This document shows, in pieces, positions 22,271 to 60,881 of a stretch of 64,000 bases of DNA; the stretch's first letter is position 1, and each line of letters opens with the position of its first letter. The stretch comes from an uncultured Alphaproteobacteria bacterium. Lineage in GTDB: Bacteria > Pseudomonadota > Alphaproteobacteria > CAAHEQ01 > UBA3637. The notes under the pieces were generated by a model, which saw nothing but the letters and a program-made list of their open reading frames with translations, was not told where the DNA came from and searched no databases. The stretch covers positions 2,884 to 66,883 of the forward strand of contig CALARE010000005.1 of the NCBI GenBank assembly GCA_937888725.1. The letters are read 5' to 3'. The position numbers and the translations under genes were made by a program.

Positions 22271-22312
22271 CATTTTAGATTTTGTAGAAAAGTTGTCATT
22301 TTCTAAAATGAT
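22271..22312. repeat. Degenerate partial repeat copy 2, immediately upstream of the ATPase RBS
   Basis: CATTTTAGATTTTGTAGAAAAGTTGTCATTTTCTAAAATGA. Keeps the ATTTTAGA/TCTAAAAT inverted arms. Confidence 0.75.
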
Positions 22313-22341
22313 AAAACGAATATGACCTTTTGTCAAGATGT

Positions 22342-34676: not shown

Positions 34677-35870
34677 TTAATCGATAGGACCCAAGTTTGT
34701 ATGAATTTGAAATTCTTTTAAATACATTGGGAATCGTGAAAGTGCCCCTTCTACTTGATCGATAATTTCTTTAATTTTTGAAATTGAAAGACCTGATAAT
34801 TTAGCCGTTTGAATAAGATCTTCATTTAAAATATGCCGTCCTTTGCCGTTGACCATGGCGGTTTGTTCGCCATTAATACCTGCAGAGGGAGTAATGTCAA
34901 AAGCAGGTGTCATTTTCCATTGATAATTTTTTGTCATCATAAAAGCAAAGTTTTTTGTGTGGTCGTCTTTGTTGCCAGATTTAACGTTAAAAATCATTAA
35001 ACGCACCATTTTTTCAACTTCACGTTCATCATGTGTTAAATGACTGGTTAGACGTATTAAATTTTCATAATCAAGTGTTGGTATCCTATGGGATGCATGT
35101 AATAATCCGCAGGCACTGTGAACATGGATTTTGTTAATTCCATCTCTATCAAAGCGTTCAGTTGCAAAATGGCCTGCACAATGTTTGGAAGGGAAAAGGT
35201 GTGTTTTTGGCATTTCAACACCAGCTTCTTTTGCCATCAAAGAATAAATATATTCAAGAGCACCCAAATTCCGTTCATCAGAATCAGATGAAAACTTAAT
35301 AATCCAAGGAGAAAATCCATTTATAGCTTCTCGCCCGCTTTTAATTGTTTTAAAATCATCAGAAACAAGGGCTGTAATTTTGGGTCTAGCACCAGCAGTT
35401 GAACCATTAAGGGTACGCAAATGCTCTAAAAGTTCAGAGCTTTCACCTTGTAAGATTTGATCAGCTCCTTCAGAAAGTGTATCTAGTTGCAACTCTGAAA
35501 AATGGGGCTCATCGGGTGTGCTTTCTGGTTCATATTCAAGAGCACCTAATGCTTGTGTCCCAATGATTGAAAGACGATGAAGGGGTGTGATTTCATAATA
35601 AGAAAGGCCCTGTTTTTGCAAGTATCTATCAAGCAACAAACAACCCCAACCATCAGGGAGAGAGTCATTAAAAAGGCCAAACAATCCATCAAAAGTTTGT
35701 TTTTTATCTTCAAAAATTCCAGTTTGTAGAGGAAGCATAAAAGGTGAAAGATTAATCCCTGTTTTTAAAAAAGAAGGTGCATATTCAAATAAAATGGTAT
35801 CTCGCTGTTCTAAAATACCAACAAAAATTCTTTTTTGATAAGCATTTAAAAAAACTTTTAATTTTAGCAT
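34677..35870 (-). CDS. hipA: Type II toxin-antitoxin system HipA-family serine/threonine kinase toxin
   Basis: N-terminal HipA coupling-domain-like region. Catalytic loop GNKDDHTKNFAFM (DDHxKN). AGARPK motif. Confidence 0.85.
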   Translation of the reverse strand: MLKLKVFLNAYQKRIFVGILEQRDTILFEYAPSFLKTGINLSPFMLPLQTGIFEDKKQTFDGLFGLFNDSLPDGWGCLLLDRYLQKQGLSYYEITPLHRLSIIGTQALGALEYEPESTPDEPHFSELQLDTLSEGADQILQGESSELLEHLRTLNGSTAGARPKITALVSDDFKTIKSGREAINGFSPWIIKFSSDSDERNLGALEYIYSLMAKEAGVEMPKTHLFPSKHCAGHFATERFDRDGINKIHVHSACGLLHASHRIPTLDYENLIRLTSHLTHDEREVEKMVRLMIFNVKSGNKDDHTKNFAFMMTKNYQWKMTPAFDITPSAGINGEQTAMVNGKGRHILNEDLIQTAKLSGLSISKIKEIIDQVEGALSRFPMYLKEFQIHTNLGPID

Positions 35871-43541: not shown

Positions 43542-44348
43542 ATGAATAACGAAGATAACATCGAAAAATTTATAAATTATATTAAATATATACAAAGAAA
43601 TTTTTGTTCTGAATCTATTTCAAAAAAGTTTTTGGATTCTCCATTTTCTAAAAAGTTGAAAGAATATTCTGTGAAAGATAAAGAAAGATGTTGCATAAAA
43701 TTTGTTGAATATTTATTTCTTTTTATTCGGCGTGAATGTCCGAGTTATTATAAGCACTTGCGGATAAATAGTTTCTATCTTGATGAAAAAAAAATAAAAA
43801 ATATGTTGTTGTTGCTGAAAAAACATATTGGAGATAAATCCGAAACATTTACTGAGGCTGTTGACCTTTTCAATGGGTATATATCTTCTGATAATATAAT
43901 TTCAAAAAAAGCGATTTTAGATTGTGTTCGATCCTTTTACCCAAAGGATAAAAAACCTTCTAGATGTGCTGATTTTATTGTGTTAAATGAAATGAATAAG
44001 CGGATGAATTATATATTGACTTCTAGCGAGTTAAAAGATGTGTTGTATACTTTAAATTCTGAGTGCTTTTTTTCTGAACAAGATCTCTTATGTGATAAAA
44101 GCTCTTGTTCATATAATATACCAAATGAAAAATATTCTTTTTTAATAGTAAAAAATGGAATTTTTAATTTTTTGTATAAAAGGAAAAAACAGACTGATAC
44201 TAAAATGGGCGTATGTTCTTTTTCGGATAAAACATTTGCTTCTTTTTATGCAGAGCTTAAGAAAAATCATATTGAACTAAGTGGTGAACAATCAGATACA
44301 CCATTTTTAAAGGTGCATTTATCCAGTATAAAAGATAATCAAAGATAA
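43542..44348 (+). CDS. Hypothetical protein (orphan island gene A)
   Basis: 268 aa, rich in Cys, Lys and Asn. I recognise no motif. Confidence 0.5.
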   Translation: MNNEDNIEKFINYIKYIQRNFCSESISKKFLDSPFSKKLKEYSVKDKERCCIKFVEYLFLFIRRECPSYYKHLRINSFYLDEKKIKNMLLLLKKHIGDKSETFTEAVDLFNGYISSDNIISKKAILDCVRSFYPKDKKPSRCADFIVLNEMNKRMNYILTSSELKDVLYTLNSECFFSEQDLLCDKSSCSYNIPNEKYSFLIVKNGIFNFLYKRKKQTDTKMGVCSFSDKTFASFYAELKKNHIELSGEQSDTPFLKVHLSSIKDNQR

Positions 44349-44355
44349 ATTTTTT

Positions 44356-45762
44356 ATGGATTTTCTAATGGATAAAAAAAAGAACAAAACTTTAAAATCA
44401 ATCGAAACAATTAATCAACAGCCTATTTTCTTTTTAGTATCCAAGGGTGATCTTGAGATTGTTAATGACTGTATTGTGACTGCGGGCTCCAGTTTGAGTG
44501 AGCGGATTGATGATATTTTAAAAATCAGAAAATTAGTGCTTGGTAATGATGGTAAAGAATATGTTTTTTTAGATTCTTCAGGAAACTCAATTTCTCCTTT
44601 GAATCCACATATGAAAACATCAATTGTACTTTGCCCAGATGGACAGCGTATTGGAACTGCAAAACGGGTTGTTTTTCGTGTGGATACACAAAGCGATCCA
44701 CATGCTAGTTTTATTGCTTTTCTTGAGTCTTTTGAACAGCATTTAGGGAGTATGGCGTATAAAAGTGCTTATGGTGATCAAAAACCAGTTGAATGGCGTA
44801 ATTTGTTAGAAAAAGAATATATTGCTATTCAATTAGAAGGGGATTTTATTCCATTAAAGGAAAGACAAAAAATAAAAGATGACACGCCTGAAGGTGTTTT
44901 TTTTACTTTGCAGAGTGAGTACAATTCTTGTGATAATGCCACCATTGTTGAAACAAAAATTTCGGTAGCTGAAAATTTTGCAAATTTAACACAGTTAAAT
45001 GAAGAAATTTTTGATGAAATTATTGGGATTGCTAACTTCGAAGAATTGGATAGATATTTTGAAAAATTTTCTTCTTTCACATATGAAAATAAATGCACAT
45101 TTTATGAGTGGATTGATGAGTGGGTTGATAAAAATGCGGAAATTCCTATTTTGGATAAGGTTGTTTATCTTTGTTGGCGTGGATTTAATGCAGATGCAGA
45201 TATTAAAACAAAAAAAAATCAGTTAAACAGGTATCATTTTTTAAATAAGGAATCTCTGCAACAAGAGTTGAGAACTTTGCGAAGTGAACAGATTTCAAAA
45301 AATAAAATATATACGTTATTTAATGCTCTTTTGACTGTTGTTAACTCAGTCCAAGAAAAAGATACTTGTGATGAAGATGAAAAAAATGCAAATCAGTTTT
45401 ATGCTATTCTTGAGGTGAAAGATTCTTATGCTAAAAATACGCTATTATCAGAAGATGCAAATAAAAAATTAACAAAACAATTGCTTCATTTTTTATTAAA
45501 AAACGGATTTGTTGTGCGTTCTCAGGGAGATATAGTACGAAGCCTTTGTGTTGTTGCTTGTCTTGCAAGTGATGCGAATACAGAAAATGTCAGTAAATGT
45601 TATCAAAATATTGCATCTGAAGTTCAAAAAACTTATCCTAGTTCTGACGAGTTGCAAAGAATTGTGGTGAGAAATTCAAATACAGAAATAGGTGTGGTGA
45701 GAAAGTTAGATGTAGAAATAGGTTCACTTTTGAAACAGTTTTTACAAAAATTTAGATCATAA
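44356..45762 (+). CDS. Hypothetical protein (orphan island gene B)
   Basis: 468 aa, starting 7 bp after gene A. No P-loop, nuclease or HTH motif recognised. Confidence 0.5.
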   Translation: MDFLMDKKKNKTLKSIETINQQPIFFLVSKGDLEIVNDCIVTAGSSLSERIDDILKIRKLVLGNDGKEYVFLDSSGNSISPLNPHMKTSIVLCPDGQRIGTAKRVVFRVDTQSDPHASFIAFLESFEQHLGSMAYKSAYGDQKPVEWRNLLEKEYIAIQLEGDFIPLKERQKIKDDTPEGVFFTLQSEYNSCDNATIVETKISVAENFANLTQLNEEIFDEIIGIANFEELDRYFEKFSSFTYENKCTFYEWIDEWVDKNAEIPILDKVVYLCWRGFNADADIKTKKNQLNRYHFLNKESLQQELRTLRSEQISKNKIYTLFNALLTVVNSVQEKDTCDEDEKNANQFYAILEVKDSYAKNTLLSEDANKKLTKQLLHFLLKNGFVVRSQGDIVRSLCVVACLASDANTENVSKCYQNIASEVQKTYPSSDELQRIVVRNSNTEIGVVRKLDVEIGSLLKQFLQKFRS

Positions 45763-45855
45763 TTCAACATGCTCTTTTTTTAGGATTTTTGAAACATTTT
45801 TTCTGTTGTCAAAATCTTTAAAGAATGTTATCCTATATATAGGAGGGGATATATT

Positions 45856-46665
45856 ATGGTAAAAGTCACATTGTTGCGAGAAGAACAAATTTGGGGCCCT
45901 GACGCTTTAGATGTAATTAAAATTTATGGCACTAAGGTGGCTCAAAGTGATTTGGCAATTGTTCTTGGAGGATGGCTTGGTAGCGATGGCGTTACGATGG
46001 AAGGGGATAGATCTGGATATATGTGGACAGCCTCTGGTTTGTTGGATTTAGGTCTTGTTCGAACCATTACGCATGCAGGTGATAAATGCTATTATTATCC
46101 AAATCGTAGACGTGATGGTGTGCGTCCTGTGTTGTTAAAAGATGAAACCGCTAAAATTACACCTGATTCAATTAGGGAAATGGTATTGACGGATGGTCAA
46201 ATTGTGAAATTAGCGATGTATGGGGAATATCCACAAAAATCTGTTAAAATAAAGTTAAGCGAATTATTAGAAAAAATGTATCATAATAAAGAATTGAAAA
46301 AGACAAAACGTTATTTTACATTTGATACGGCGGGTTTGACTGATTATGAAACAGGGTTGAAGCCAAAGCAATATTTTGTTTATATTCACGATGGTAAGAG
46401 CTATGTTCGATTGGAGGGACGCCCAGCTGATAGCGATTCAATTTTATCGAATGGAAAAGATGTGCAAATTGGTGAACCGTATTGGATTGAAGTGTTGCCA
46501 ATTAAATGGCTTGTAGATGAAAAAACGGGGATTTGGATTTCTAAAAAAGCACTGGTAAGTGGGATTCGTTTTGGTGCAGATGATACTTATAATGGTAAAT
46601 TTGAAGAAACGGATATGCACCATTATTTAAATACATATTTTGCCAACGAGATGTTGAATAAATAG
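45856..46665 (+). CDS. Hypothetical protein, DUF6273-like (orphan island gene C)
   Basis: GYMWTAS ... DGVRPVLL and PIKWLVDEKTGIWISKKAL ... HHYLNTYFANE resemble, from memory, the WWLRS / GVRPAL / IeWrVL / LRkWLN motifs of DUF6273 proteins, but in a different order. AGGAGGGG RBS. Confidence 0.5.
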   Translation: MVKVTLLREEQIWGPDALDVIKIYGTKVAQSDLAIVLGGWLGSDGVTMEGDRSGYMWTASGLLDLGLVRTITHAGDKCYYYPNRRRDGVRPVLLKDETAKITPDSIREMVLTDGQIVKLAMYGEYPQKSVKIKLSELLEKMYHNKELKKTKRYFTFDTAGLTDYETGLKPKQYFVYIHDGKSYVRLEGRPADSDSILSNGKDVQIGEPYWIEVLPIKWLVDEKTGIWISKKALVSGIRFGADDTYNGKFEETDMHHYLNTYFANEMLNK

Positions 46666-46743
46666 AATATATGAAATACAGCTCTCATGGTAAGGAAAGC
46701 GTATATCAAAAATGATTTTCTTTAATATTAGGACTTGAATTTT

Positions 46744-46760
46744 ATACCATATGATGGTAT
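46744..46760. promoter_or_regulatory. Perfect 17-bp palindrome upstream of the lipoprotein gene
   Basis: ATACCAT-ATG-ATGGTAT. A TATAAT hexamer lies at 46775-46780. Confidence 0.3.
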
Positions 46761-46823
46761 GAAAAATAATAACATATAATACGCATAATATTTTGTGTTA
46801 GAGGTGAGGGAGTCATTTTTGTA

Positions 46824-47297
46824 ATGAAGAAAATTTTAACCTTGTTTTTGATTGTTTTTATGGCGGGATGCAGTACGCTGACTCAAGAAGAAAAAAATGC
46901 TATCGATGATTTAAGACGTATTCGTATTACGGTTAAACGTCCTGTGTCAAAGTGGAAAGCTCCTGTGGATACGAAAAAAGCAACTATTCTTAGTATATTG
47001 CCAGGTGGCGGAAATTTTTATCTAGCAAGCACTGGTGCTGCAGGTAAAGAGCAATATCTTTATGGTGCACTTAATTTGATAACATGGCCTTTTTCGCTTT
47101 CTTGGGCAATACCGACTGTATATCATGAAGCAGACAATATTAACAAAAAAGATTTAATATATTATTATACTTATAATCCAGAGGGTGTAAATTTATTGCA
47201 TTATAACGGATATCATCTAACACCAGAAGGGTATTTGCAAAGACTTTATCGTCGGGTTTATCAATATACAGATGCTACTCCTTGGGGTTATTATTAA
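46824..47297 (+). CDS. Lipoprotein, hypothetical
   Basis: Lipobox FMAGC|S. Internal hydrophobic PGGGNFY ... WPFSLSW segment. Confidence 0.55.
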   Translation: MKKILTLFLIVFMAGCSTLTQEEKNAIDDLRRIRITVKRPVSKWKAPVDTKKATILSILPGGGNFYLASTGAAGKEQYLYGALNLITWPFSLSWAIPTVYHEADNINKKDLIYYYTYNPEGVNLLHYNGYHLTPEGYLQRLYRRVYQYTDATPWGYY

Positions 47298-48938: not shown

Positions 48939-49286
48939 TTATTTTGCAGCTGGTTTTTGTTGTGGTTTTTTTCTTTTATCAACTAAATGATAAATGCCAG
49001 TTTTTGGGTTTTTCTTATATACTTCAATATCCCATTTATCCCAAACAATTTCAAATGAATCAGCTGTAATGTTTTGTAAGTTACCAGCATCGCTTGATAA
49101 TTTGCGTTGAGCACGACCCTGTCCTAAATTAACAATTGTGCCAGACCAAGCTGGATGTTGAACTTGAACTTGACTTGGTAAAGTGTATTTCACTTCATTT
49201 GATGTGGTTTGTTCTCCGCCTGTATAATAAACAACCCCGACAGCCAATGCACCTAAAACGACTAAAAACGGTATAATTTTTTTCAT
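48939..49286 (-). CDS. Hypothetical N-terminally anchored or secreted protein
   Basis: MKKIIPFLVVLGALAVGVVYY followed by a soluble domain with a Lys/Pro-rich tail. Confidence 0.5.
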   Translation of the reverse strand: MKKIIPFLVVLGALAVGVVYYTGGEQTTSNEVKYTLPSQVQVQHPAWSGTIVNLGQGRAQRKLSSDAGNLQNITADSFEIVWDKWDIEVYKKNPKTGIYHLVDKRKKPQQKPAAK

Positions 49287-49383
49287 ATTTTTCTCCTTTA
49301 AAACAATCCAATCCTACCTAAATCTACTCTTAGCAAAAAAATAATTAAAATACAACAAAAAAAATACATGAAAACAAAAAAAA

Positions 49384-49794
49384 TTAAAAGGATAGAGGGA
49401 TAATTGTTTGAATAAGACCGCAGTCAAATTTTTCAAATAATGAAGATTTGTTTTCTATTTGTTGGTTTGTTTGATTTTTATTGAATTTTTTGGATAAAGA
49501 ATCTGGTTTTCTGACAAATGTGCCACAGTGTGATATTGAGAAAAATGATTTTTTTTCTGGTATGTTGGTTGTTGCGTCTTCCAAAAAGATTTTTTTTACC
49601 TTTTGTGAGTTTGATTTCTGAAACGGTAGCGAAAAATCAAAATGCGTTGTTTGCGTTTTAAAAGGAATATACTGTACTAAAAACAGATGTGTGAAAAGAT
49701 TGTCTTTGCTGTTTTTGTAACTATTAAACAAGTAAAATAGTGAAATAAAAGCCAAGGATATGATAAAAAGCAATATAAAGTGTTTCTTTTTCAT
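49384..49794 (-). CDS. Hypothetical N-terminally anchored protein
   Basis: MKKKHFILLFIISLAFISLFYLF anchor. No motif recognised. Confidence 0.45.
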   Translation of the reverse strand: MKKKHFILLFIISLAFISLFYLFNSYKNSKDNLFTHLFLVQYIPFKTQTTHFDFSLPFQKSNSQKVKKIFLEDATTNIPEKKSFFSISHCGTFVRKPDSLSKKFNKNQTNQQIENKSSLFEKFDCGLIQTIIPLSF

Positions 49795-49830: not shown

Positions 49831-49859
49831 AAAAAAAGCACACAGGATGTGTGCTTTTT
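49831..49859 (-). terminator. Rho-independent terminator closing the paralog array
   Basis: GCACACA-gga-TGTGTGC flanked by A and T runs, immediately downstream of the ORF at 49898..50374. Confidence 0.6.
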
Positions 49860-49897: not shown

Positions 49898-50374
49898 TTA
49901 TGCCCTTGTAAGAATTTTTTCTTCCTTTTTTGAGGTTGAGGCAACATTTTGAGAGTGGCTTGAAATTCTGCGTGGTTGTCTAATCTCTTTTTCATAAACA
50001 GCAAAAACATTAGAACCTTTTTCATTTTTAAAATAATCAATAAACATTTTGGGTTGTTCAATACTTTCCGAAGATATTTTTCCTGGGTTTGTTGTGGCAA
50101 CGCCAATATCTCTATAATGTGAAAACATTTTAGAAAAATGTTTTTGAGTGTCTTTTGGCATACAAACATGGCTATCATATTCCCCCCATGACCAATCAAT
50201 CATACTCGTAGCCCATTTAGTGCACTCTTTTAATGCCTTGTTCGTTGGCGATTCGTTTTTTTCTTCTTCAGATAAGCTATCTAAATAACAGCCAACAGTG
50301 TTTAATTTTTTTATAATTTCATTTAATTCTAGATTTTCTTGTTTTCTTGACGAAAATATATTAAAAATACTCAT
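49898..50374 (-). CDS. Paralog-array protein P1 (hypothetical)
   Basis: Starts MSIFNIFS; its first 23 nt are identical to those of P2. Shared motifs HFSKMFSHY and PKMFIDYFKNEKGSNVF. Confidence 0.6.
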   Translation of the reverse strand: MSIFNIFSSRKQENLELNEIIKKLNTVGCYLDSLSEEEKNESPTNKALKECTKWATSMIDWSWGEYDSHVCMPKDTQKHFSKMFSHYRDIGVATTNPGKISSESIEQPKMFIDYFKNEKGSNVFAVYEKEIRQPRRISSHSQNVASTSKKEEKILTRA

Positions 50375-50473
50375 GTTAAAACTCCTTTACACAATATAAC
50401 ATTGTTCGTGTTATAATTTATAAAGATATTTTTGTTAATACTTTTTTTGTTTTTATTATTTTTGTTGTGTTAT

Positions 50474-50926
50474 TTATTCATTTGAATGATAGTTTTTATT
50501 TTTTATTATGGATTTTATAACCCAATTTCCTCTCTCGTCAGTAGAAATTCTAAATGGTTTTTCCCAGTTTGCAATAAGTTCAGCACCTTCTTCTTTTGTA
50601 AAAAAATCAATGAACAGTTGAGGGTGGCGAACGGTTGCGGCTGAGAAACTTTGAGGATAAGAAATCGCATCCATAATAGCATCATAATGCTCAGACATGG
50701 TTTTAAAATGATCTTCTACACTTTTTGTCGGGTAGCGAAAAAAATTATAGTGGCTTTTTAGAATTGTGCGTTTGTGGTTTATCAATTCCTTACATTCATC
50801 TATAGATATTCTCATTAGGGAATGAGGGTCATTTGATACGGATCTTCCTATTTTATCTAATTTATCAACAATAATTTCTAATTCCTTTTTTTCTTTGTTT
50901 TTTGAAAATATATTAAAAATACTCAT
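50474..50926 (-). CDS. Paralog-array protein P2 (hypothetical)
   Basis: MSIFNIFS..., HFKTMSEHY, PQLFIDFFTKEEGAELI. AAGGAG RBS. Confidence 0.6.
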   Translation of the reverse strand: MSIFNIFSKNKEKKELEIIVDKLDKIGRSVSNDPHSLMRISIDECKELINHKRTILKSHYNFFRYPTKSVEDHFKTMSEHYDAIMDAISYPQSFSAATVRHPQLFIDFFTKEEGAELIANWEKPFRISTDERGNWVIKSIIKNKNYHSNE

Positions 50927-50936
50927 GGTGTTCTCC

Positions 50937-51485
50937 TTATAATATTCTTTGATTATTTTTTCCTTGAAGTTGCTTGATATTTCTTTTTGCTAAAACAACA
51001 GTTTTTATTCCTACTCCAAGTATAACTCCAGCAACAACAGCAGAAAAAGTTAACAATTTTTTTGTGGTTGAGCTTATCCCTTTTTGAGGGGTATTTGGCT
51101 CGATAAGATGATGAATGTGTACCTTTTCTTGATTCCAAGCTTTAAGAATAGATGAGCCGTTTCCCCTTGTAAAATAATTGATAAACCGTTTGCGTTCAGT
51201 TGAATTTAAATTGTAACTATTTAACTTACCACTTAATGAAAGTTTTATTATATCCCAAAACTTTAATATTTCAACCTGCGAATTATTGATAGAAAGCGTA
51301 TAATTTTGATCTTTTTCTAATGTTGTAATGGCGTTATCAGCTTGTTTTTTGCAATAGTCAATGTATTTTGATGTATTAAAAAGCTGTTTATTTGATTTAG
51401 ATAAATTTTCAAGCTCTGAAACGATTGTTTCTAACTCCATATTGATATCTCGAGCTTTTTCAATGTTTGATGTAAATAATGCCAT
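50937..51485 (-). CDS. Paralog-array protein P3 with a C-terminal TM helix (hypothetical)
   Basis: RKRFINYFTRGNGSSIL motif, plus the C-terminal hydrophobic segment LLTFSAVVAGVILGVGIKTVVLA. Confidence 0.6.
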   Translation of the reverse strand: MALFTSNIEKARDINMELETIVSELENLSKSNKQLFNTSKYIDYCKKQADNAITTLEKDQNYTLSINNSQVEILKFWDIIKLSLSGKLNSYNLNSTERKRFINYFTRGNGSSILKAWNQEKVHIHHLIEPNTPQKGISSTTKKLLTFSAVVAGVILGVGIKTVVLAKRNIKQLQGKNNQRIL

Positions 51486-51552
51486 TTATTTATCCTTTCT
51501 TATTATTTTTTTGGCAGTTATGTTTTTGACGAAATAATAAAACAAAAACGAC

Positions 51553-51969
51553 CTATTTTGTGTTTAAAAATTTTTGTTGAATCAAATGCGGTAAGACAGT
51601 CTGAAAATTTCTCTTTTCTACTTCTTTATAATAATGTTCACCTAAAAAGTGATACAAAATAGCATGTTGCTGTTTTTTTGTCAAAATTCCCTCATGCATG
51701 TGACGTATCACTTTTTGTGGAAAATTATACGAATCATAAATAGCCTTCCACTTTAAATATGTTGTTTGCATATCAGAGTTGTTTGAAACACTTGGATTCG
51801 CATATTGTTCATAAAAACGCAGTTGGTCAAAGACTTTCTCTCTATTTTTTGAAATACTTTTCGCAATTTGTGCATTTTGCTGATTTGGCGAATCTTCTGA
51901 TGTTGTTTTTATAAGGCGTTCCAGCGTAACTAAAATTAGCTGAATAAGTTCTTTTTTTTCTTTTGACAT
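51553..51969 (-). CDS. Paralog-array protein P4 (hypothetical)
   Basis: KWKAIYDSYNFP (compare P5 KIRAIYDSYNDP) and QQHAILYHFLGEH. Confidence 0.6.
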   Translation of the reverse strand: MSKEKKELIQLILVTLERLIKTTSEDSPNQQNAQIAKSISKNREKVFDQLRFYEQYANPSVSNNSDMQTTYLKWKAIYDSYNFPQKVIRHMHEGILTKKQQHAILYHFLGEHYYKEVEKRNFQTVLPHLIQQKFLNTK

Positions 51970-51979
51970 AATCGCACTC

Positions 51980-52126
51980 TTAGTTGTTAGCTTTTAATAA
52001 GTTCTGCGTAATAGCTTTTACTTCAATGGGACTAAGTGCTGGTTTCCCATTGAGAAAAATCTTGTAATGTGGCATCAATACGGGATAATAATTTGATAAG
52101 TTGTTTTTTTTATATTTAGCAAGCAT
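51980..52126 (-). CDS. Possible 48-aa sORF inside the array; not in the ORF track
   Basis: My translation is MLAKYKKNNLSNYYPVLMPHYKIFLNGKPALSPIEVKAITQNLLKANN. AAGGAAA RBS. Located 10 bp upstream of P4 and 19 bp downstream of P5. Confidence 0.3.
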   Translation of the reverse strand: MLAKYKKNNLSNYYPVLMPHYKIFLNGKPALSPIEVKAITQNLLKANN

Positions 52127-52145
52127 GTTATTTCCTTTTGTTGGG

Positions 52146-52658
52146 TTATTTAATTCGTTCTTTAAAAGCTTTAAAAAAAACTTTTTGTAGATTTAACGGT
52201 AATCTTTGAACCCCTTTTTGGATTTCGTGCGGCGTTAAGATGCAAGAAAGAGCAATCCATTTGTTTAAATTATCAGATTTATCCTGTGGAATGAGAGATT
52301 GAAGTTCTTCTTTTGTAAATAATTCCTTTCCCTCTCCTTTGGTAAAATGCTGAATAATAGCTCGCTTTTGTTCAGCACCATAACTGTTTAAATTTTTAAG
52401 GGTATTGATTGGGTCATTATATGAATCATAAATGGCTCGAATTTTTGCAACTTCACCTCTTTTTTTTGTGCAAATTCTAGGATTAAAAGCGTTTAATGAG
52501 TCAGCTTTTATGTGGTAATTATTCAAGTGTTGTAGATAATACTCTGCAGCACTTGTTTTTGCAAGGGCGGTGTTGCCGTTTTCATAAAACAAAATATCAT
52601 TCTTGATGTTTGAAAGAAGGAAAAGTATCTTTTCGATTATGCTTATATTTTTTGTCAT
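52146..52658 (-). CDS. Paralog-array protein P5 (hypothetical)
   Basis: KIRAIYDSYNDP and QKRAIIQHFTKGEGKELF. Confidence 0.6.
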   Translation of the reverse strand: MTKNISIIEKILFLLSNIKNDILFYENGNTALAKTSAAEYYLQHLNNYHIKADSLNAFNPRICTKKRGEVAKIRAIYDSYNDPINTLKNLNSYGAEQKRAIIQHFTKGEGKELFTKEELQSLIPQDKSDNLNKWIALSCILTPHEIQKGVQRLPLNLQKVFFKAFKERIK

Positions 52659-52669
52659 TAGAATTCAAC

Positions 52670-53143
52670 TTAACAATTTGAAAGAGCTTGTCTTTTTTGT
52701 TCATATAAAAATTTTTTTTCATAGGGTTTTCCAATAATCGAATGAGGGAACCCTTTTCTTTGCGTTTTAAGTGCTTGTTCGAAGCTTAATTGGCAAATAA
52801 ATTGACGACAAATTGGCGTTAGTGTATCGATAATGTCTTGTCTTTCCTCAGAGGTTAAATTTACTAATGTTGATACAAGATAAGATGGACAATGATAGAT
52901 TTTGGTGATGTTTTTCCATTTATTTAGTTGTCTAGCAAGTTCAGGTGTTTCACCTTCATTGACACGAATAGAAAGTTCTGTCATTCGCCAATTGTGAAAA
53001 GCTGTTTGTTGAAAATCAATAATAGGCAGATCTCTTTGAACACTTTTTTTTGATTTTGATAAGTATTTATGTGCTTGGTCAATTGTTTTTACAATACATT
53101 TGATTTTTGAAATTTCAATTTCATCTTGACTTTTTGTACCCAT
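52670..53143 (-). CDS. Paralog-array protein P6 (hypothetical, most divergent)
   Basis: KWKNITKIYHCP and TSEERQDIIDTL align with the P4/P5 motifs. Confidence 0.55.
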   Translation of the reverse strand: MGTKSQDEIEISKIKCIVKTIDQAHKYLSKSKKSVQRDLPIIDFQQTAFHNWRMTELSIRVNEGETPELARQLNKWKNITKIYHCPSYLVSTLVNLTSEERQDIIDTLTPICRQFICQLSFEQALKTQRKGFPHSIIGKPYEKKFLYEQKRQALSNC

Positions 53144-53233
53144 CTTTTACCCTTTCTGTAGCAAAAAAACACTTTTATTTTAGCATGAATGGAGTTATTT
53201 GTCAAATGTTTTATTTAAAATGATTATTTTGCT

Positions 53234-53276
53234 AAAAAATAACCACCCTTAAATTTTTATGGGTGGTTATTTATCT
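53234..53276 (-). terminator. Terminator after hsp20
   Basis: ATAACCACCC-(12 nt)-GGGTGGTTAT flanked by A and T runs. Confidence 0.6.
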
Positions 53277-55811: not shown

Positions 55812-58800
55812 GTGCAAAAAGTTTATTTTTCATTACCTGTTTTTGCGGTGACAATGTTGGCTTTTGTGGCAAATGCAACAGAGGTTAATCTGCCAACGGC
55901 TGTCGTGTTAGATAAAACAAGCTCTTATTATGATTCTGTATCCAATAAAATTACCTATGAAAATTCAAGTGATATCGTTGCAGGATCGGGTGGAAATACG
56001 GTTTTTGTGAATGCAAAAGATATTCCAGTTGATATTAAAAATACGGGGAATATATCAGCCCCAACAGGTGGTTTTGGTATTTATGGTCATACAACCCCAA
56101 CAGTGGGTGCACCGATTTATATTGATAACCAAGGAACGATTGAAAGAATTCAATTGCAAGAGTTTGATGGTGTCACCATTTTTAACCAGTCAGAACAAGA
56201 AACGTCTGATGATTCTGAAACAGATACGGGAACTGATACTGGAACGGACACAGGAACAGATACACAAGCTGATGAAGAAAATACTGCTACTCAAGTTACG
56301 CCTGTTATAAAAGGGAGTATGTTGCTTGGAACAAATGCAATGGTTTCAAATTTTGGCGGTAGATTTGAAAATTTTGATGGAGATGATAAAAATAATACAA
56401 TTGCATTTGCAAGTAATGGTACGTTGCATAACGGTGCACAACCTATTGTTTCATCAATTAAGGATGAAGATGGGCATGAAACACTTGTTCAAACAGGGTT
56501 AAATATATTTGATTCTTCTATTACAACCGATAATATTATCTTTCTTGGAAATGGTTTTTTCTCTAATGCTTCAAAGGTTGACGTTCAATCTGTTAATATG
56601 GGGAATAATGCAACAATTCGAAATGTGGTTGATCCCTATATTTCGAATGTTGGTGATGAAAATCTAGCTGGAAAGGTATTGCCAGATGGTGCAAATTTTA
56701 AAGCTGTCGATATTGAGGTTGGCAATAATTCAAATATTTTTAATGAAATGGGTGCGACGTTTGAAGCTGACCGCATTATAACTGGTGTAAATACAGTTAT
56801 TACAAATGGAGCAAGTTATTATTTTGATTATCTAAATCAGGTTGGAGTAACAACTGTTACAATTGATGGTGAATTAAATGATATACTTGAGGGGATAGAA
56901 GGTGTTTTGGGCGGTGTATTGGGTGATTTAATATCATCACCAACAACTGAAACAACACCTAATTTAGGTATAACAACGAATACGACTTATTTCCCTGTTC
57001 CAAAAATTCCACATGCATCGCAAATGAATGTTGAACAGCTTGTTATGGGTGAAAATTCAAGCTTGATTAATAATGGAAATAGCGTCTATCAAGGTAATAC
57101 AATTGATTTTAAAGATTCGGGGCAATTAACTATACAAGCTGGTAGTGTTAATTTAACGGGCGATTTAACTTTTGAAAATAATGGTTCAATTCTTGTTTCA
57201 ACAATTTATCAACCTTCCGTATATGTTCCACAACTAAAAGATTCAGCAGAGGATGAGAGTGGGACAGATGATACGACAGGTACCTTACCTGATGAAAATG
57301 GAACAGCTCAATCAAATATAATGACAATTGATGAAATAGATGATACGTTGGAAACAATTACGCCAGTCGCAGGGACATTAACACCTGAAGCAATTGATGT
57401 TTTGATGGGTGTACTAAGAGATGGGAGTGATTTATCTGAAGCTGAATTGGCACGTATTGAAGCTGAATTAAAAGCGGATAGTGAATTGAATCCTGATAAA
57501 CAATATACAGCTGAAGAAATACAAAATATTATTAATGATGCAATTAATGGTGTTGGTGGTGGCACATCAGGAGGGGGATCTTCTGGTGGTTCAGATAGTG
57601 ATACATCAGATGATGGAGATGGGGATGGCTCAGGCGGTGGGTCACAAATACCTGATGATAATCCGTCAGCAGGCACAGGTGCTCCAACTGTTCCAGATGA
57701 ATTAAAAGATTATGTTGAATATAAAGAAGTTTTGTCTGGAACCTTTTATGATGCAAGTCTTAAAGCTGAAAATATAAAAATGGGAGATAATGGCAATATT
57801 ACTGTAACAGGGGGTACACTCAATACAAAACGAATTGATATGGGTGATAATGCCGTTCTTACCATTCAATCAGCAGCCTATTCTTTAGGTGAAGGTGGCA
57901 TGACAGATGGATCGGGTTCTGATTTGACGGATGGCGAGAAAGCTGATTTTATACTACCTAGTGTTTCTGTATCAGAAGGCATTTATTTGGGGAATTCTTC
58001 AACATTGAATCTTGATGATAGGGCTTATCAAGATGGTGATGAAAAAATGGCCGTTATTTTAACTCCTTCAATTAATTTTAAAGCTGATGGTCGCATTGCG
58101 TTGAATGGTGATTTTACACTCTATGCCGATAGTGAAAAACAAACACTAGGACAAATTAATATGGCTGAACGAGGCTTTATTCAAGCCCTTGCAAAATTAA
58201 AAGCTGATATTACTTTAGGTTCGGATTCAAATGTATTATTGTCTAATCAGCAAGAAGAAGATGAAGACGGAGAAGATTCTTCTGCTGCTATTTGTAATCA
58301 TTGTTATCAAGCTGGGACGATTTTAGGTTCACTTAAAAAAGCTGAAGGAGCCAAAAATGTACACATTACTGTGGATGTGGATGAAGCTCATTTTGCAAAA
58401 TTAGATGGTGATATTAATGTTGATTCGATTTTGGTTGATGTTGGTTTGTTAGAAGCAGCTGGTGAGGTGAAAGGCAATATCTATTTAAATACGGATACAA
58501 CATTCAGAGTAACAAGTTCATCCATTAAAGATGGTCCATTAATTATTTATGATCCAATTACTCGTCTTGATAATACAACAAATACAACTTTAGAAGTCTT
58601 GTTGAATAATAATGAATTTTACAAGACAACCAATACAATTAATGTTGAAAATTTGATTGTTCATCAAGGCGGGATTGAAGTTAATAAACCTGTTTGGATT
58701 GATAATGTCAAATTGAATGATAACACAACTATTCGTTTGACGGATAATTTTAAAATTGGGGAAATTAAAGAGTTTGATGGAGATGCGGTTAATACGACAC

Positions 58801-60881
58801 TTGAAATTGATGCAAATGGAAAAAGTGTAAATTCATCTGGTGATGTTTATGTTGATAGAATTTTAGTTTCAAGTGGTAATTATAATGCATTGCATGAAAT
58901 TAATATAGCCTCCACATCGGCAAATGCTGTTTATCCAACCTCATTTGAAGAGGGGGTTGAACTTGGTTCAGGTGCTTCATTAACAGCATATGCGGATATC
59001 TCTGTGCCACGAATTGTACGAGATCAAACAAAATTATCCAATGGGGAAGAAGTTTTAAACACGACATTGAATGTGAACTCAAATCATTTTGAAGTCCGTG
59101 GGAATGTTGATGTTGATAATTTAAATATGAATGGTGGTGTGTTTGAGTTCTTAAATGAAGCTGGGTCAAATGCGGTCAATGTGACTAACAATATTCATTT
59201 AAAACCCTATGCTGCGTTGGCAGGAAGTGGTATTTTAAATGTCAAAAGTGGTCTATTGACTATTGATGAAAATTCAAGACTTGCCGTTTCAAATAAAAGT
59301 GTTGATGAAACGCCTTTATCTGAGTTAAAAATTGTGTCCTCTAATGATACAATTATTAATTCAGCAGCTTCATATACAACGAAAGATTTGACAGTTAAAA
59401 CAGATTCGAGTGGTTATATTGATGTCCGTGCAAAAGGAGCCAATAGTGATAAGATAACGGTTGAAGGAACTTTTGATTTAGCTGATGGCACACGAATAAT
59501 TGTGCGTGATATTGAGGCAAATCAATCCTATGAAATTTTGTCTGCAAATGAGTTAAATGCAAATGCAGATAAATTAAGGACGACATTTTTATGGAAAGGG
59601 ACAAAGCTTTCTACGAACAATAATACATTATCAGTTCAAATAGATGGTGTTCAAACGTTAAAAGAAGGTTTAGAACCCACAAAACGTTCTAAAAATGTGG
59701 ACGAGCTGACAAATCTTTTAACCAGCTTAAGAGAAAGTGAAGGGGCTTATACAATCGATCCTTTTATTGACAATGTTTATTTTGCATCATCAGCAGATGA
59801 AGCGGTTGAAATATTAGATGAATATTCACCAGAAGGTTACCTAAATACATTACATGCAGCGAATCGGATGCAAAGCGTATTTAAGGATAGTGTAATGTCT
59901 GAAATGAATGCTATGCGTAATTATCGTGTTAAACATGACATGGCAAGAGGATATTATGTCAGACAGCCGTATTATTATGGTCGCCCAGGATATGAACGCT
60001 ATTATCAAGGATTTAGATATGTAAGACAAAATCCTTATGGACAAAGACGAACAGATAGAGGTGGTTTATGGGCAAAACCTTTTGCTGTATCCGTTAGTCA
60101 GGATAATAAAGATAATCAATCAGGATATGATTTTGATGCGTATGGGTTTACCGCAGGTATTGACCGTAAAGTTGGTGTTTTAACTCTTGGGTTGGCAGCA
60201 ATGTATGCAACTGGTGATATGGAACAAAAAAATAAAAAATTTGAATCTGATATGACAACATACGGTTTGGGTGTTTATGCGAGTGTTAATCCACATTATT
60301 CACGTACATTTATGGATTTTTATGCATTGTGGAGTGAAACATCTAATTCAACAAGTCGAAAGATTACTTCGTTAGCTGAAACAGCCAAAGCTGATTTTGA
60401 TGTATCTGCTTTTTCAATTGGAGCTGACTTGGGATATGAAATCATGGTAACACGCAACTTTATCATTACACCAAAAATTGGTTTAGATTATACCTCAATA
60501 GAAATGGATGATGTAATGGAAAAAGGAACAGGTTACGCATTAACGAATTTGAAAGGCTCTGATTTACAATCTATTCAAACACCAATTGAATTAAAAGCCG
60601 CTCTTGATTTTGGCAATCCTTTCTTTCGATTTAAACCAGAGGCTCATATCAGATGGACGCATGAATTTGGTGATACGGCCTCAAAATCAACTGCAACATT
60701 TGTTAAATATGCCTCTCCATTTGCTGTTGAAGGGTTAAATGTTGATACAGATACGTTTACAGTGGGTGGATCGCTTTTATGGCTTTATGGCATGTCAGAA
60801 TTAGAGTTGAAATATGATTATGATTTCTCATCATCAATGACGGGACACACCATCAATATGGGATACAAATATTTATTCTAG
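55812..60881 (+). CDS. Large autotransporter (type Va) with a ~1400-aa passenger
   Basis: GTG start with an AAGAGG RBS. Signal peptide MQKVYFSLPVFAVTMLAFVANA. Asn/Gly/Thr-rich, beta-helix-like passenger. C-terminal beta-domain from about 60040 (GGLWAKPFAVSVSQDNKDNQSGYDFDAYGFTAGIDRK ...) ending in ...MGYKYLF. Confidence 0.85.
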   Translation: MQKVYFSLPVFAVTMLAFVANATEVNLPTAVVLDKTSSYYDSVSNKITYENSSDIVAGSGGNTVFVNAKDIPVDIKNTGNISAPTGGFGIYGHTTPTVGAPIYIDNQGTIERIQLQEFDGVTIFNQSEQETSDDSETDTGTDTGTDTGTDTQADEENTATQVTPVIKGSMLLGTNAMVSNFGGRFENFDGDDKNNTIAFASNGTLHNGAQPIVSSIKDEDGHETLVQTGLNIFDSSITTDNIIFLGNGFFSNASKVDVQSVNMGNNATIRNVVDPYISNVGDENLAGKVLPDGANFKAVDIEVGNNSNIFNEMGATFEADRIITGVNTVITNGASYYFDYLNQVGVTTVTIDGELNDILEGIEGVLGGVLGDLISSPTTETTPNLGITTNTTYFPVPKIPHASQMNVEQLVMGENSSLINNGNSVYQGNTIDFKDSGQLTIQAGSVNLTGDLTFENNGSILVSTIYQPSVYVPQLKDSAEDESGTDDTTGTLPDENGTAQSNIMTIDEIDDTLETITPVAGTLTPEAIDVLMGVLRDGSDLSEAELARIEAELKADSELNPDKQYTAEEIQNIINDAINGVGGGTSGGGSSGGSDSDTSDDGDGDGSGGGSQIPDDNPSAGTGAPTVPDELKDYVEYKEVLSGTFYDASLKAENIKMGDNGNITVTGGTLNTKRIDMGDNAVLTIQSAAYSLGEGGMTDGSGSDLTDGEKADFILPSVSVSEGIYLGNSSTLNLDDRAYQDGDEKMAVILTPSINFKADGRIALNGDFTLYADSEKQTLGQINMAERGFIQALAKLKADITLGSDSNVLLSNQQEEDEDGEDSSAAICNHCYQAGTILGSLKKAEGAKNVHITVDVDEAHFAKLDGDINVDSILVDVGLLEAAGEVKGNIYLNTDTTFRVTSSSIKDGPLIIYDPITRLDNTTNTTLEVLLNNNEFYKTTNTINVENLIVHQGGIEVNKPVWIDNVKLNDNTTIRLTDNFKIGEIKEFDGDAVNTTLEIDANGKSVNSSGDVYVDRILVSSGNYNALHEINIASTSANAVYPTSFEEGVELGSGASLTAYADISVPRIVRDQTKLSNGEEVLNTTLNVNSNHFEVRGNVDVDNLNMNGGVFEFLNEAGSNAVNVTNNIHLKPYAALAGSGILNVKSGLLTIDENSRLAVSNKSVDETPLSELKIVSSNDTIINSAASYTTKDLTVKTDSSGYIDVRAKGANSDKITVEGTFDLADGTRIIVRDIEANQSYEILSANELNANADKLRTTFLWKGTKLSTNNNTLSVQIDGVQTLKEGLEPTKRSKNVDELTNLLTSLRESEGAYTIDPFIDNVYFASSADEAVEILDEYSPEGYLNTLHAANRMQSVFKDSVMSEMNAMRNYRVKHDMARGYYVRQPYYYGRPGYERYYQGFRYVRQNPYGQRRTDRGGLWAKPFAVSVSQDNKDNQSGYDFDAYGFTAGIDRKVGVLTLGLAAMYATGDMEQKNKKFESDMTTYGLGVYASVNPHYSRTFMDFYALWSETSNSTSRKITSLAETAKADFDVSAFSIGADLGYEIMVTRNFIITPKIGLDYTSIEMDDVMEKGTGYALTNLKGSDLQSIQTPIELKAALDFGNPFFRFKPEAHIRWTHEFGDTASKSTATFVKYASPFAVEGLNVDTDTFTVGGSLLWLYGMSELELKYDYDFSSSMTGHTINMGYKYLF
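56217..56270 (+). repeat. In-frame 12-nt tandem repeat encoding (TDTG)n within the autotransporter
   Basis: GATACGGGAACT GATACTGGAACG GACACAGGAACA GATACACAA encodes ETDTGTDTGTDTGTDTQ. Confidence 0.7.

What the first reader, a model, noticed from the sequence alone, without database searches (positions are those of the whole stretch)
49898..53143. Same-strand tandem array of six divergent paralogs plus a sORF, encoding an unrecognisable ~150-aa protein family
Six consecutive minus-strand ORFs (158, 150, 182, 138, 170 and 157 aa) share a common architecture.
- Each has an N-terminal helical segment.
- Each has a central motif: HF(S/K)xMxxHY in P1/P2, K(W/I)(K/R)AIYDSYN(F/D)P in P4/P5, and KWKNITKIYHCP in P6.
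- Each has a distal motif: PKMFIDYFKNEKGSNVF, PQLFIDFFTKEEGAELI, RKRFINYFTRGNGSSIL, QKRAIIQHFTKGEGKELF, QQHAILYHFLGEH.

Most gaps between genes are tight (10-19 bp), which suggests sub-operons P6-P5-sORF-P4, P3-P2 and P1. The array starts after the hsp20 terminator and ends at its own terminator.

P1 and P2 have identical first 23 nt (ATGAGTATTTTTAATATATTTTC) but are otherwise strongly diverged. That pattern fits gene conversion or a conserved 5' signal. P3 alone carries a C-terminal TM helix.

I recognise no known domain. Arrays of diversified small paralogs are typical of immunity-protein or orphan-immunity clusters, effector families of host-associated bacteria, and anti-defence loci. No toxin or secretion gene is adjacent, so the function is open. 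Two small anchored proteins (48939..49286 and 49384..49794) follow on the same strand.
Basis: partly seen in the sequence, partly recalled or inferred. Interest (0 to 1): 0.75.

Follow-up and report, generated by a model that had tools for sequence, protein, structure and literature searches.

The report
Hypervariable tandem array, unknown helical proteins
Six neighbouring genes in an uncultured gut alphaproteobacterium encode one very divergent, previously undescribed family of small helical proteins that varies from 1 to 6 copies between close relatives and is reshuffled by recombination; what the proteins do is still unknown.

Summary
All six minus-strand ORFs sit at the stated coordinates. 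Subfamily profile comparisons link them in one chain, P1/P2–P3–P5–P4–P6 (E 1e-4 to 1e-8; shuffled and reversed controls score far lower).

Nothing known matches them. Pfam, NCBIfam, PADLOC, PHROGs, PDB sequences and Foldseek on two confident AlphaFold models (all-alpha, pLDDT 80-82) gave no significant hit. A profile search of 1.84 billion representative proteins found 18 real clusters. Every one whose context I could inspect lies in the same slot, between hsp20 and two small membrane proteins next to GlyRS, in a few gut alphaproteobacterial assemblies.

New findings:
- Copy number runs from 1 (a P4-like gene) to 6.
- A sigma-70-type promoter heads the array in all 8 genomes compared.
- dN/dS is 0.15-0.9, against 0.02-0.03 for the flanking genes.
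- The locus is a recombination mosaic.
- The "sORF" is a frameshifted relic of a seventh member.
- Only hydrophobic core positions are conserved family-wide, so the proteins are probably not enzymes.

No homologue was found beside a toxin, secretion or phage gene, which weakens the immunity and effector readings. My best guess, at low confidence, is a set of diversified intracellular binding proteins.

The parts
53234..53270 (-). Intrinsic terminator of hsp20 (stem ATAACCACCC / GGGTGGTTAT followed by a T-run). It separates hsp20 from the array.
   Evidence: Sequence. The fold keeps the hairpin in both the MFE and the centroid structure.
53177..53205 (-). Sigma-70-type promoter of the array (TTGACA, 17 nt, TGcTAAAAT; extended -10).
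   Evidence: 11 of 12 consensus matches. The -35 TTGACA and key -10 positions are invariant in 8 of 8 related genomes, in an intergenic region with only 44% mean column identity. This holds whichever family member comes first.
52670..53143 (-). P6, 157 aa. Subfamily G6, central motif KWKNITKIYHCP.
   Evidence: ORF. Orthologues are 26-89% identical. AF2 pLDDT 79.6 and pTM 0.67, five to six helices. G4-G6 hhalign E 3.4e-6.
52146..52658 (-). P5, 170 aa. Subfamily G5: family core plus a C-terminal extension of about 45 aa (NLxKWIALS..LTPHEIxKG..LP..QK). The gene is chimeric: 52300-52658 is L090-like and 52146-52270 is L093-like.
   Evidence: AF2 pLDDT 82.4. This subfamily bridges the two halves of the family: G5-G4 9e-9, G3-G5 4e-5, G12-G5 9e-5.
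51980..52126 (-). The 'sORF'. It is a frameshifted, truncated 5' relic of a seventh, P4-like family member and marks a recombination or deletion scar.
   Evidence: The first ~85 nt are about 93% identical to the 5' end of the third array gene of L093. A 1-nt deletion in an A-run shifts the frame, and similarity ends after about 52035. The ORF is absent from L090, L006 and L094. It gets no family-HMM hit.
51553..51969 (-). P4, 138 aa. Subfamily G4, present in every complete array seen and so the likely ancestral type. Motif KWKAIYDSYNFP.
   Evidence: Allelic classes are only 27-58% identical among genomes whose GlyRS is at least 94% identical.
50937..51485 (-). P3, 182 aa. Subfamily G3, with a C-terminal transmembrane helix (residues 147-165, about 50991-51047), so predicted to be tail-anchored.
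   Evidence: G12-G3 hhalign E 2.6e-7.
50474..50926 (-). P2, 150 aa. Subfamily G12.
   Evidence: 95% aa identity to L090 with dS 0.024. The orthologue is frameshifted in L005-L007.
49898..50374 (-). P1, 158 aa. Subfamily G12, paralogue of P2 (32% identity, E 1e-13).
50300..51330 (-). Recent recombination tract, running from mid-P3 through P2 into the first ~70 nt of P1. It is 97-100% identical to L090, against 85-90% in the flanks.
   Evidence: Sliding identity. dS 0.024-0.078 against 0.6-1.0 in the flanking genes.
49833..49859 (-). Intrinsic terminator that ends the array.
   Evidence: 12-bp stem plus T-run. Fold z = -5.08, with 0 of 200 shuffles folding as well.

Best explanation
**What it is (well supported).** This is one operon. 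A conserved sigma-70-type promoter sits at 53177-53205 and a terminator at 49833-49859. It encodes six intact members, plus one frameshifted relic, of a single lineage-restricted family. The proteins are basic, all-alpha and 138-182 aa long.

The organism is an uncultured gut alphaproteobacterium. Its closest matches are MAGs from roe deer colon, buffalo rectum and sheep rumen.

**How it arose (well supported).** The ancestral state is probably a single P4-like gene between hsp20 and the A2-A1-GlyRS block. Tandem duplication and divergence then produced P6, P5 and later P3, P2 and P1. Relatives with at least 94% identical GlyRS carry 1, 2, 3 or 6 copies.

Homologous recombination between strains keeps reshuffling cassettes. 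P3-P2 was exchanged recently. The 3' end of P5 and the relic come from a different haplotype. P4 exists as allelic classes only 27-58% identical to each other.

**How it most likely works (inferred, roughly 0.3).** The proteins are probably non-enzymatic helical-bundle binding modules that act inside the cell. P3 would be tethered to the inner membrane by its tail anchor.

Only the hydrophobic core, an aromatic-basic pair (W/Y-K/R) and a helix-Pro-helix turn are conserved. The rest of each protein varies freely.

On this reading the array is a small library of binding specificities directed at a fast-changing partner. The partner could be an incoming foreign protein (from a phage or delivered by a competitor) or a variable protein of the cell's own envelope. 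Duplication and inter-strain recombination would keep the library diverse.
For: **Family and operon**
- ORFs confirmed; homology chain with controls.
- P0020 combines a P3-like FINYFTKGNG motif with a P5 C-terminus.
- The promoter footprint is invariant in 8 genomes, whatever gene comes first.

**Restricted distribution and fixed location**
- 3, 9 and 14 hits in three searches of 5.8 billion proteins.
- 19 hits, 18 of them real, among 1.84 billion representatives.
- The same hsp20 ... A2-A1-GlyRS slot in every context examined.
- No member elsewhere in the window or in 20 related loci.

**Copy number** runs from 1 to 6, and a P4-type gene is present in every complete array.

**Evolutionary rate**
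- dN/dS is 0.15-0.94 for array genes against 0.02-0.03 for GlyRS, MsbA and hsp20.
- It stays below 1 even where dS is saturating, for example P4 at 0.37 with dS 1.4. The frames are therefore under selection.

**Mosaicism** is shown.

**Fold and chemistry**
- Two confident all-alpha AF2 models.
- Family-wide conserved columns are hydrophobic core positions plus W/Y and K/R. No conserved polar or catalytic set exists.
- No signal peptides.
Against: - No binding partner is identified, and there are no expression or protein data.
- No homologue was found beside a toxin, secretion system, integrase or phage gene. That argues against the classical immunity or anti-phage versions of the idea.
- dN/dS never exceeds 1. 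High divergence could therefore reflect relaxed constraint rather than diversifying selection.
- One copy (P2) is broken in a sister lineage, so single copies are dispensable.
- AF2 models built from alignments of 14-17 sequences may overstate how well the fold is defined.
- A conserved position in the core chromosome beside hsp20 and msbA would also fit a housekeeping-adjacent role.
Confidence: 0.4

Rival explanations
1. This is an orphan immunity-gene cluster. Each paralogue neutralises a different variant of a polymorphic toxin (T6SS, CDI or bacteriocin type) delivered by competitors in the gut.
For: - The proteins are small, leaderless and alpha-helical, with one membrane-anchored member.
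- Tandem copy-number variation runs from 1 to 6.
- dN/dS is elevated and the locus is a recombination mosaic.
- The habitat is the gut, judged from the sources of the closest MAGs.
Against: - Cognate immunity genes should exist next to the toxin genes of attacker strains. A search of 1.84 billion representatives found no homologue outside this family, and every member whose context I could inspect lies in this same slot.
- There is no toxin, Rhs, VgrG, CdiA or recombinase gene in the window or in the related loci I fetched.
- The locus is in the core chromosome, not on an island.
- The adjacent autotransporter is type Va, divergently oriented, and separated from the array by msbA and hsp20.
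Confidence: 0.15
2. These are accessory factors of the neighbouring envelope and stress genes (MsbA-like ABC exporter, Hsp20, the membrane proteins A2 and A1, the autotransporter). They might be adaptors or chaperone-like partners that co-evolve with variable envelope proteins.
For: - Synteny is invariant in every genome that has the family: autotransporter, then msbA, hsp20, the array, A2, A1.
- A2 and the autotransporter passenger domain also evolve fast. A2 dN/dS is 0.25, and passenger identity to L089 is 40-65%.
- P3 is membrane-tethered.
Against: - A terminator and a separate conserved promoter lie between hsp20 and the array.
- hsp20 and msbA are under strong purifying selection (dN/dS 0.03) while the array is not.
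- Relatives L011 and L013 keep A2, A1 and GlyRS without the array or hsp20 at this site.
- Copy number varies while the neighbours stay single-copy.
Confidence: 0.15
3. These are young, weakly constrained lineage-specific genes with little or no function. They would be duplicating, drifting and decaying in a recombination-prone intergenic hot spot.
For: - dN/dS reaches 0.47-0.94 for P3, P2 and P1.
- P2 is frameshifted in three samples of a sister lineage.
- The window itself holds a frameshifted relic.
- The family is confined to a handful of assemblies.
Against: - Frames have stayed open across lineages with dS above 1, with dN/dS of 0.15-0.37 for P6, P5 and P4.
- At least one P4-type gene is retained in every complete array.
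- The strong promoter is invariant.
- The predicted folds are confident and consistent.
- In 32% GC DNA, open frames of 138-182 codons do not persist by chance.
Confidence: 0.15
4. These are exported effectors that act on a eukaryotic host, a protist or other bacteria.
For: - The proteins are fast-evolving, basic, helical and of unknown function.
- A relative encodes an ankyrin-repeat protein.
- The bacterium has an autotransporter and a type IV pilin.
Against: - Five of the six have no signal peptide or hydrophobic segment.
- There are no T3SS, T4SS, T6SS or T1SS genes in the window.
- The adjacent ABC protein matches MsbA best (524 bits) rather than PrtD-type T1SS (209 bits).
- P3's tail anchor implies a cytoplasmic orientation.
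Confidence: 0.08

Closest known systems
Orphan or acquired immunity-gene arrays against polymorphic toxins
   Same: Tandem small leaderless helical proteins, copy-number variation between strains, fast divergence and recombination mosaicism, in a gut setting.
   Different: All members here are homologous to one another. No toxin gene, toxin remnant, recombinase or mobile element is linked. No homologue was seen next to a toxin. The chromosomal position is fixed.
Tandem paralogue families of small-genome alphaproteobacteria that vary by recombination (for example Anaplasma/Ehrlichia msp2/p44 and OMP-1/p28; from general knowledge)
   Same: A lineage-specific tandem array in an AT-rich alphaproteobacterial genome, with cassette-like recombination and pseudogene relics.
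   Different: Those proteins are signal-peptide-bearing beta-barrel outer-membrane antigens. These are leaderless all-alpha proteins with no sequence or fold similarity to them.
Staphylococcal protein A Z/B domain (PDB 5h7b, 5h7a, 5h79)
   Same: A short helix-Pro-helix N-cap motif: LPNLNEEQRNAFIQSL in protein A against the family's P...L(T/S)xE(Q/R)xxAIIxxF.
   Different: Each repeat scores only 7-9 bits (independent E-value 17-41). The summed E of 1e-5 comes from five repeats. Foldseek does not recover it. I treat it as motif-level resemblance, not homology.
Generic four- and five-helix bundles in the PDB (Bcl-2-like proteins, F-BAR, HPt domains, designed bundles)
   Same: All-alpha bundle topology.
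   Different: The best Foldseek E-values are 1.0 for P6 and 3.0 for P5, with TM-scores of 0.2-0.3. None is significant.

Membership tests
Any curated protein family (Pfam-A, NCBIfam) | Score at or above the family's curated cut-off | tested here: not met
   The best hits have E of 0.01-0.2 and lie far below the cut-offs. Scanning 26 family members one by one gave no recurrent family; the most frequent was LPD5, in 3 of 26 members, best E 0.017.
Polymorphic-toxin immunity proteins (orphan immunity cluster) | The gene, or homologues of it, lies immediately downstream of a toxin gene or toxin C-terminal cassette | tested here: not met
   There is no toxin-like gene in the window. In the 10 genome contexts recovered, every member lies in the hsp20-to-A2 slot. 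The exhaustive search found nothing outside this family.
Polymorphic-toxin immunity proteins (orphan immunity cluster) | Small, cytoplasmic or membrane-anchored, non-enzymatic protein | tested here: met
   138-182 aa, no signal peptide, one tail-anchored member, and no conserved polar residue set.
Polymorphic-toxin immunity proteins (orphan immunity cluster) | Neutralises a cognate toxin | not testable with these tools
   This needs co-expression or competition assays.
Known anti-phage defence systems (PADLOC-DB) | Match to a defence-system protein model | tested here: not met
   One weak hit only: P1 against a diadenylate-cyclase model, E 0.004, 15 bits.
Phage or prophage proteins, including anti-defence | Homologues in phage genomes or viral contigs, or phage genes in the neighbourhood | tested here: not met
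   The best PHROGs hit has E 0.014. IMG/VR scans with the P6 and P4 profiles found nothing. The best BFVD fold-search E is 0.7. No phage genes are in the window.
Type I secretion substrates | Linked T1SS ABC exporter with a membrane-fusion protein | tested here: not met
   The upstream ABC protein matches MsbA best (TIGR02203, 524 bits) against PrtD-type T1SS at 209 bits. No membrane-fusion protein gene is adjacent.
hsp20 heat-shock operon partner | Co-transcription with hsp20 | tested here: inconclusive
   A terminator hairpin and a separate conserved promoter lie between hsp20 and P6. Read-through cannot be ruled out without RNA data.

The most novel reading that the evidence does not exclude
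The array is a new kind of intracellular specificity locus. A previously unseen helical fold would be diversified by tandem duplication and cassette-like inter-strain recombination to recognise and neutralise rapidly changing foreign proteins, such as phage products or competitor-delivered toxins. That would make it a new immunity or defence family with no relative among known systems.
Probability: 0.2. Interest if true: 0.7.

Novelty: new variant of a known kind. Interest (0 to 1): 0.45.

Why it matters
**Why it could matter.** The proteins have no detectable relative by sequence or predicted fold. A search of about 1.84 billion representative proteins found only 18 real clusters of them, from a few assemblies of uncultured gut alphaproteobacteria.

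Among the genes compared at this locus, these diverge fastest. P4 is 30-40% identical between genomes whose GlyRS is 94-97% identical. The locus also shows clear cassette exchange between strains.

Hypervariable chromosomal slots of this type often encode conflict systems, such as immunity, defence or surface variation. If the family binds foreign proteins, it would add a new fold to that repertoire. It would also give a handle on the ecology of a poorly known gut lineage.

**If it has no such role.** It would still be a clean example of gene birth, tandem expansion, recombination and decay in a small AT-rich genome.

**Limits.** The function is unknown, there are no expression data, and the taxonomic range is very narrow.

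Tried and rejected
1. **Library scans.** Pfam, NCBIfam, PADLOC and PHROGs scans of all six proteins, and Pfam on 26 family members, gave only noise.
2. **PDB by sequence profile.** The apparent hit to protein A (E 1e-5) is a sum of five repeat matches of 7-9 bits each. I rejected it as homology.
3. **Fold searches.** Foldseek of the P6 and P5 models against the PDB, and of P5 against BFVD, gave no match with E below 0.7.
4. **sORF as a duplicated P5 C-terminal module.** Not significant (E 0.35 in a four-sequence database). It was replaced by the demonstrated relic origin.
5. **GTDB genome scan with the P6 profile.** No hit. The GlyRS scan then identified the clade and supplied syntenic loci.
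6. **JGI metagenome scans with the P4 and P6 profiles.** No hit. The whole-family alignments were too divergent for the tool.
7. **T1SS-substrate idea.** Rejected because the neighbouring ABC protein is MsbA-like.
8. **Co-variation with the autotransporter.** Its passenger domain is variable, as expected for a surface protein, but nothing ties it to the array.
10. **Taxonomy.** A literature search for the gut alphaproteobacterial lineage added nothing beyond the source of the ruminant MAGs.

Full report
**1. The observation**

The interval 49898-53143 holds six minus-strand ORFs of 158, 150, 182, 138, 170 and 157 aa, plus a 48-aa ORF. I call them P1 to P6 in order of increasing coordinate. All quoted motifs are present.

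Spacing and flanking signals:
- Gaps between genes are 11, 19, 10, 67, 10 and 99 nt.
- P1 and P2 share their first 23 nt and an AAGGAG ribosome-binding site.
- hsp20 (53302-53781/53811) is followed by a GC-rich hairpin and a T-run at 53234-53270.
- An 11-of-12 match to the sigma-70 consensus, with an extended -10, lies at 53177-53205.
- A strong terminator follows P1 at 49833-49859 (z = -5.1).
- The 67-nt and 99-nt internal gaps hold no terminator, and the scan puts no minus-strand promoter-like site in them. The P2-P1 gap folds into a hairpin over the P1 ribosome-binding site (z = -3.0).

P3 alone has a C-terminal transmembrane helix. The other five are hydrophilic and basic (pI 7.9-9.8) and have no signal-like segment.

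**2. Are the six homologous?**

Pairwise comparison gives only part of the answer. P1~P2 is clear (E 1e-13). P1/P2~P3 and P4~P5 are marginal (about 1e-4). P6 is not significant on its own.

With orthologues from related contigs added, subfamily profiles link into a chain (hhalign):

| Link | E-value | Probability |
|---|---|---|
| G12 (P1/P2) - G3 (P3) | 2.6e-7 | 93% |
| G3 - G5 (P5) | 4e-5 | 70% |
| G12 - G5 | 9e-5 | 59% |
| G5 - G4 (P4) | 9e-9 | 96% |
| G4 - G6 (P6) | 3.4e-6 | 88% |

Real scores are 34-56. Reversed or column-shuffled versions of the same alignments score 10-20.

A natural hybrid, P0020, joins a P3-like FINYFTKGNG motif to a C-terminus nearly identical to that of the window's P5.

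**3. Whose genome, and where else is the family?**

The closest matches to the window's GlyRS (94% identity) are MAGs labelled 'Alphaproteobacteria bacterium' from roe deer colon and another gut data set. MAGs at 83-87% come from buffalo rectum, roe deer cecum and sheep rumen.

The window is ordinary core chromosome. It carries SecA, PGK, GAPDH, PheRS, RecG, FliG/FlhF/FlhG, Mur ligase and HipA.

Three searches of 5.8 billion proteins returned 3, 9 and 14 hits. An exhaustive profile search of 1.84 billion representatives returned 19 hits at E of 1e-3 or better, and one of those is a spurious repeat protein. Scans of GTDB genomes, JGI metagenomes and IMG/VR with subfamily profiles found nothing.

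Every member whose context I could recover lies in the same slot: autotransporter (divergent), MsbA-like ABC, hsp20, the array, A2, A1, then GlyRS. In L091 an extra hydrolase gene sits between A1 and GlyRS.

A family-HMM scan of all ORFs of at least 45 aa in the window and in 20 related loci found no member outside the array.

A2 and A1 are unrelated to the family. They stay next to GlyRS in more distant relatives (L011, L013) that lack both hsp20 and the array at this site.

**4. Evolutionary dynamics (new)**

*Array content differs between close relatives:*

| Locus | Array content |
|---|---|
| L010 | [P4] |
| L009 | [P4][P5-like, 220 aa] |
| L089 | [P6][P4] |
| L091 | [P6][P5][P4] |
| L093 | [P6][P5/P3 hybrid][P4-like] |
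| L008 | [P2-like][P6][P4] |
| L090, L006, window | [P6][P5][P4][P3][P2][P1] |

A P4-type gene is present in every complete array, so it is the likely ancestor.

*The promoter is conserved.* The -35 TTGACA and the key -10 positions are invariant in all eight genomes compared, whichever gene comes first. The rest of the intergenic region is poorly conserved (44% mean column identity).

*Substitution rates, window against L090 (Nei-Gojobori):*

| Gene | dN/dS | Note |
|---|---|---|
| GlyRS | 0.02 | flank |
| MsbA | 0.03 | flank |
| hsp20 | 0.03 | flank |
| P6 | 0.15 | |
| P5 | 0.26 | |
| P4 | 0.37 | 42% aa identity, dS 1.4 |
| P3 | 0.47 | |
| P2 | 0.94 | few substitutions |
| P1 | 0.48 | |

The genes are therefore coding and constrained, but 5 to 40 times less so than their neighbours.

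*The locus is a mosaic.*
- Flanks are 85-90% identical to L090 at the nucleotide level.
- The stretch 51330-50300 (mid-P3, P2 and the start of P1) is 97-100% identical, with dS of 0.02-0.08. This indicates a recent exchange.
- The stretch 52350-51500 (3' end of P5, the sORF and P4) is only 54-70% identical.
- The window's P5 is chimeric. 52658-52300 is L090-like (78-96%). 52270-52035 is L093-like (90-100% apart from one 78% window).

*P4 alleles are very divergent.* P4 allelic classes are 27-58% identical among genomes with at least 94% identical GlyRS.

*The sORF is a relic.* Its first ~85 nt are about 93% identical to the 5' end of L093's third, P4-like gene. One A is missing from an A-run, which shifts the frame, and similarity stops soon after. 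It is the scar of a seventh member, not a small gene. It is absent from L090, L006 and L094.

*A sister lineage has lost a copy.* In three samples of that lineage, P2 is split by a frameshift.

**5. What the proteins look like**

AlphaFold2 on family alignments gives confident all-alpha models. P6 has pLDDT 79.6 and pTM 0.67, with helices at 6-30, 40-61, 67-84, 86-95 and 98-130. P5 has pLDDT 82.4 and pTM 0.67, with the same core plus three short C-terminal helices.

The conserved central motif (KWKxIYxxYxxP) forms the end of helix 3 and the Pro turn. The distal motif (L-T/S-x-E-Q/R-x-x-I-I-x-x-F) is the N-cap and first turns of the long helix 5.

Columns conserved across the whole family are hydrophobic core positions plus an aromatic (W/Y) and a basic (K/R) residue. 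No conserved polar constellation exists that would suggest catalysis or metal binding.

Foldseek finds nothing significant in the PDB (best E 1.0 and 3.0; TM-score 0.2-0.3) or in BFVD (best E 0.7).

A profile search of PDB sequences picks up protein A Z-domains. That is only a sum of five hits of 7-9 bits each to one helix N-cap motif. I treat it as convergence.

**6. Mechanism**

*Shown:* an operon with a conserved promoter; one divergent family; 1 to 6 copies; recombination mosaicism; relaxed but real constraint; a leaderless helical-bundle prediction; and no conserved catalytic residues.

*Inferred:* the proteins are binding modules whose surfaces are free to vary. The array would be a small library of specificities against a fast-changing partner.

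The classical orphan-immunity version is weakened because no homologue was seen beside a toxin. The secreted-effector version lacks any signal or secretion machinery, and the neighbouring ABC protein is MsbA-like. A role with the neighbouring envelope and stress genes fits the fixed synteny, but not the separate promoter or the variable copy number. Near-neutral young genes remain possible for the peripheral copies (P1-P3), less so for the P4 and P6 types.

I put about 0.9 on the structural and evolutionary description and about 0.3 on the binding-library mechanism.

**7. Comparison and novelty**

The genomic phenomenon is a known kind: lineage-specific tandem expansion in a recombination hot spot. 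The protein family and its predicted fold are undescribed.

Membership in immunity clusters, defence systems, phage proteins, T1SS substrates and every curated family was tested. The defining features were not met.

**Verdict.** Interest is moderate.

Noticed in passing
window 48939-49794 (-); L011:9065-9847; L010:9000-9841: A2 (136 aa) and A1 (115 aa) are small proteins with an N-terminal membrane anchor. They stay next to GlyRS across a wider clade than the array does. A2 evolves fast (67% aa identity to L090, dN/dS 0.25) but keeps an invariant C-terminus (CGLIQTIIPLSF). Neither has a known domain.
   Followed up: partly
window 50378-50432 (-): A hairpin in the P2-P1 gap pairs with the P1 AAGGAG ribosome-binding site (MFE -12.8 kcal/mol, z = -3.0). 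It may act as a translational control element or simply stabilise the mRNA.
   Followed up: partly
L005:10001-10433, L006:5967-6399, L007:596-1028: The P2 orthologue is split by the same frameshift (83 aa plus 65 aa) in three separate sequencing runs of a sister lineage. It is therefore a real pseudogene and not an assembly error.
   Followed up: partly
window 55812-60881 (+): A 1689-aa autotransporter with a TDTG repeat stretch near its N-terminus and no recognisable passenger domain. The N-terminal half of the passenger is much more variable between relatives (40-86% identity) than the beta-barrel (76-97%).
   Followed up: partly
window 43542-47297 (+): Four consecutive plus-strand ORFs (268, 468, 269 and 157 aa) with no Pfam or NCBIfam match. 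The last begins with a lipoprotein-like signal (…FMAGCSTL).
   Followed up: no
window 34677-35870 (-): A HipA-like kinase toxin (HipA_C and Couple_hipA domains) sitting in an otherwise housekeeping region.
   Followed up: no
window 13837-16916 (-): A flagellar regulatory block next to secA: a ParA/MinD-like ATPase (FlhG-like), an SRP54-type GTPase (FlhF-like), and a 440-aa FliG with an N-terminal extension of about 120 aa.
   Followed up: no
window 21008-22336 (-): An AAA_14/DUF4143 ATPase close to the only tRNA gene in the window, tRNA-Leu(GAG) at 20041-20125.
   Followed up: no
L091:12511-13296 and L091:18160-18654: In one relative, an alpha/beta-hydrolase gene is inserted between A1 and GlyRS, and an ankyrin-repeat protein lies about 4 kb further on. 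Ankyrin repeats may hint at interaction with a eukaryote.
   Followed up: no
L009:7351-7611 and L009:8025-8687: In this relative the slot holds an 86-aa ORF with no family signal. It also holds a 220-aa protein that shares only the C-terminal 'LTPHEI..LP..QKAL' module with P5 (phmmer E 9e-8). That module may therefore move between genes independently.
   Followed up: partly
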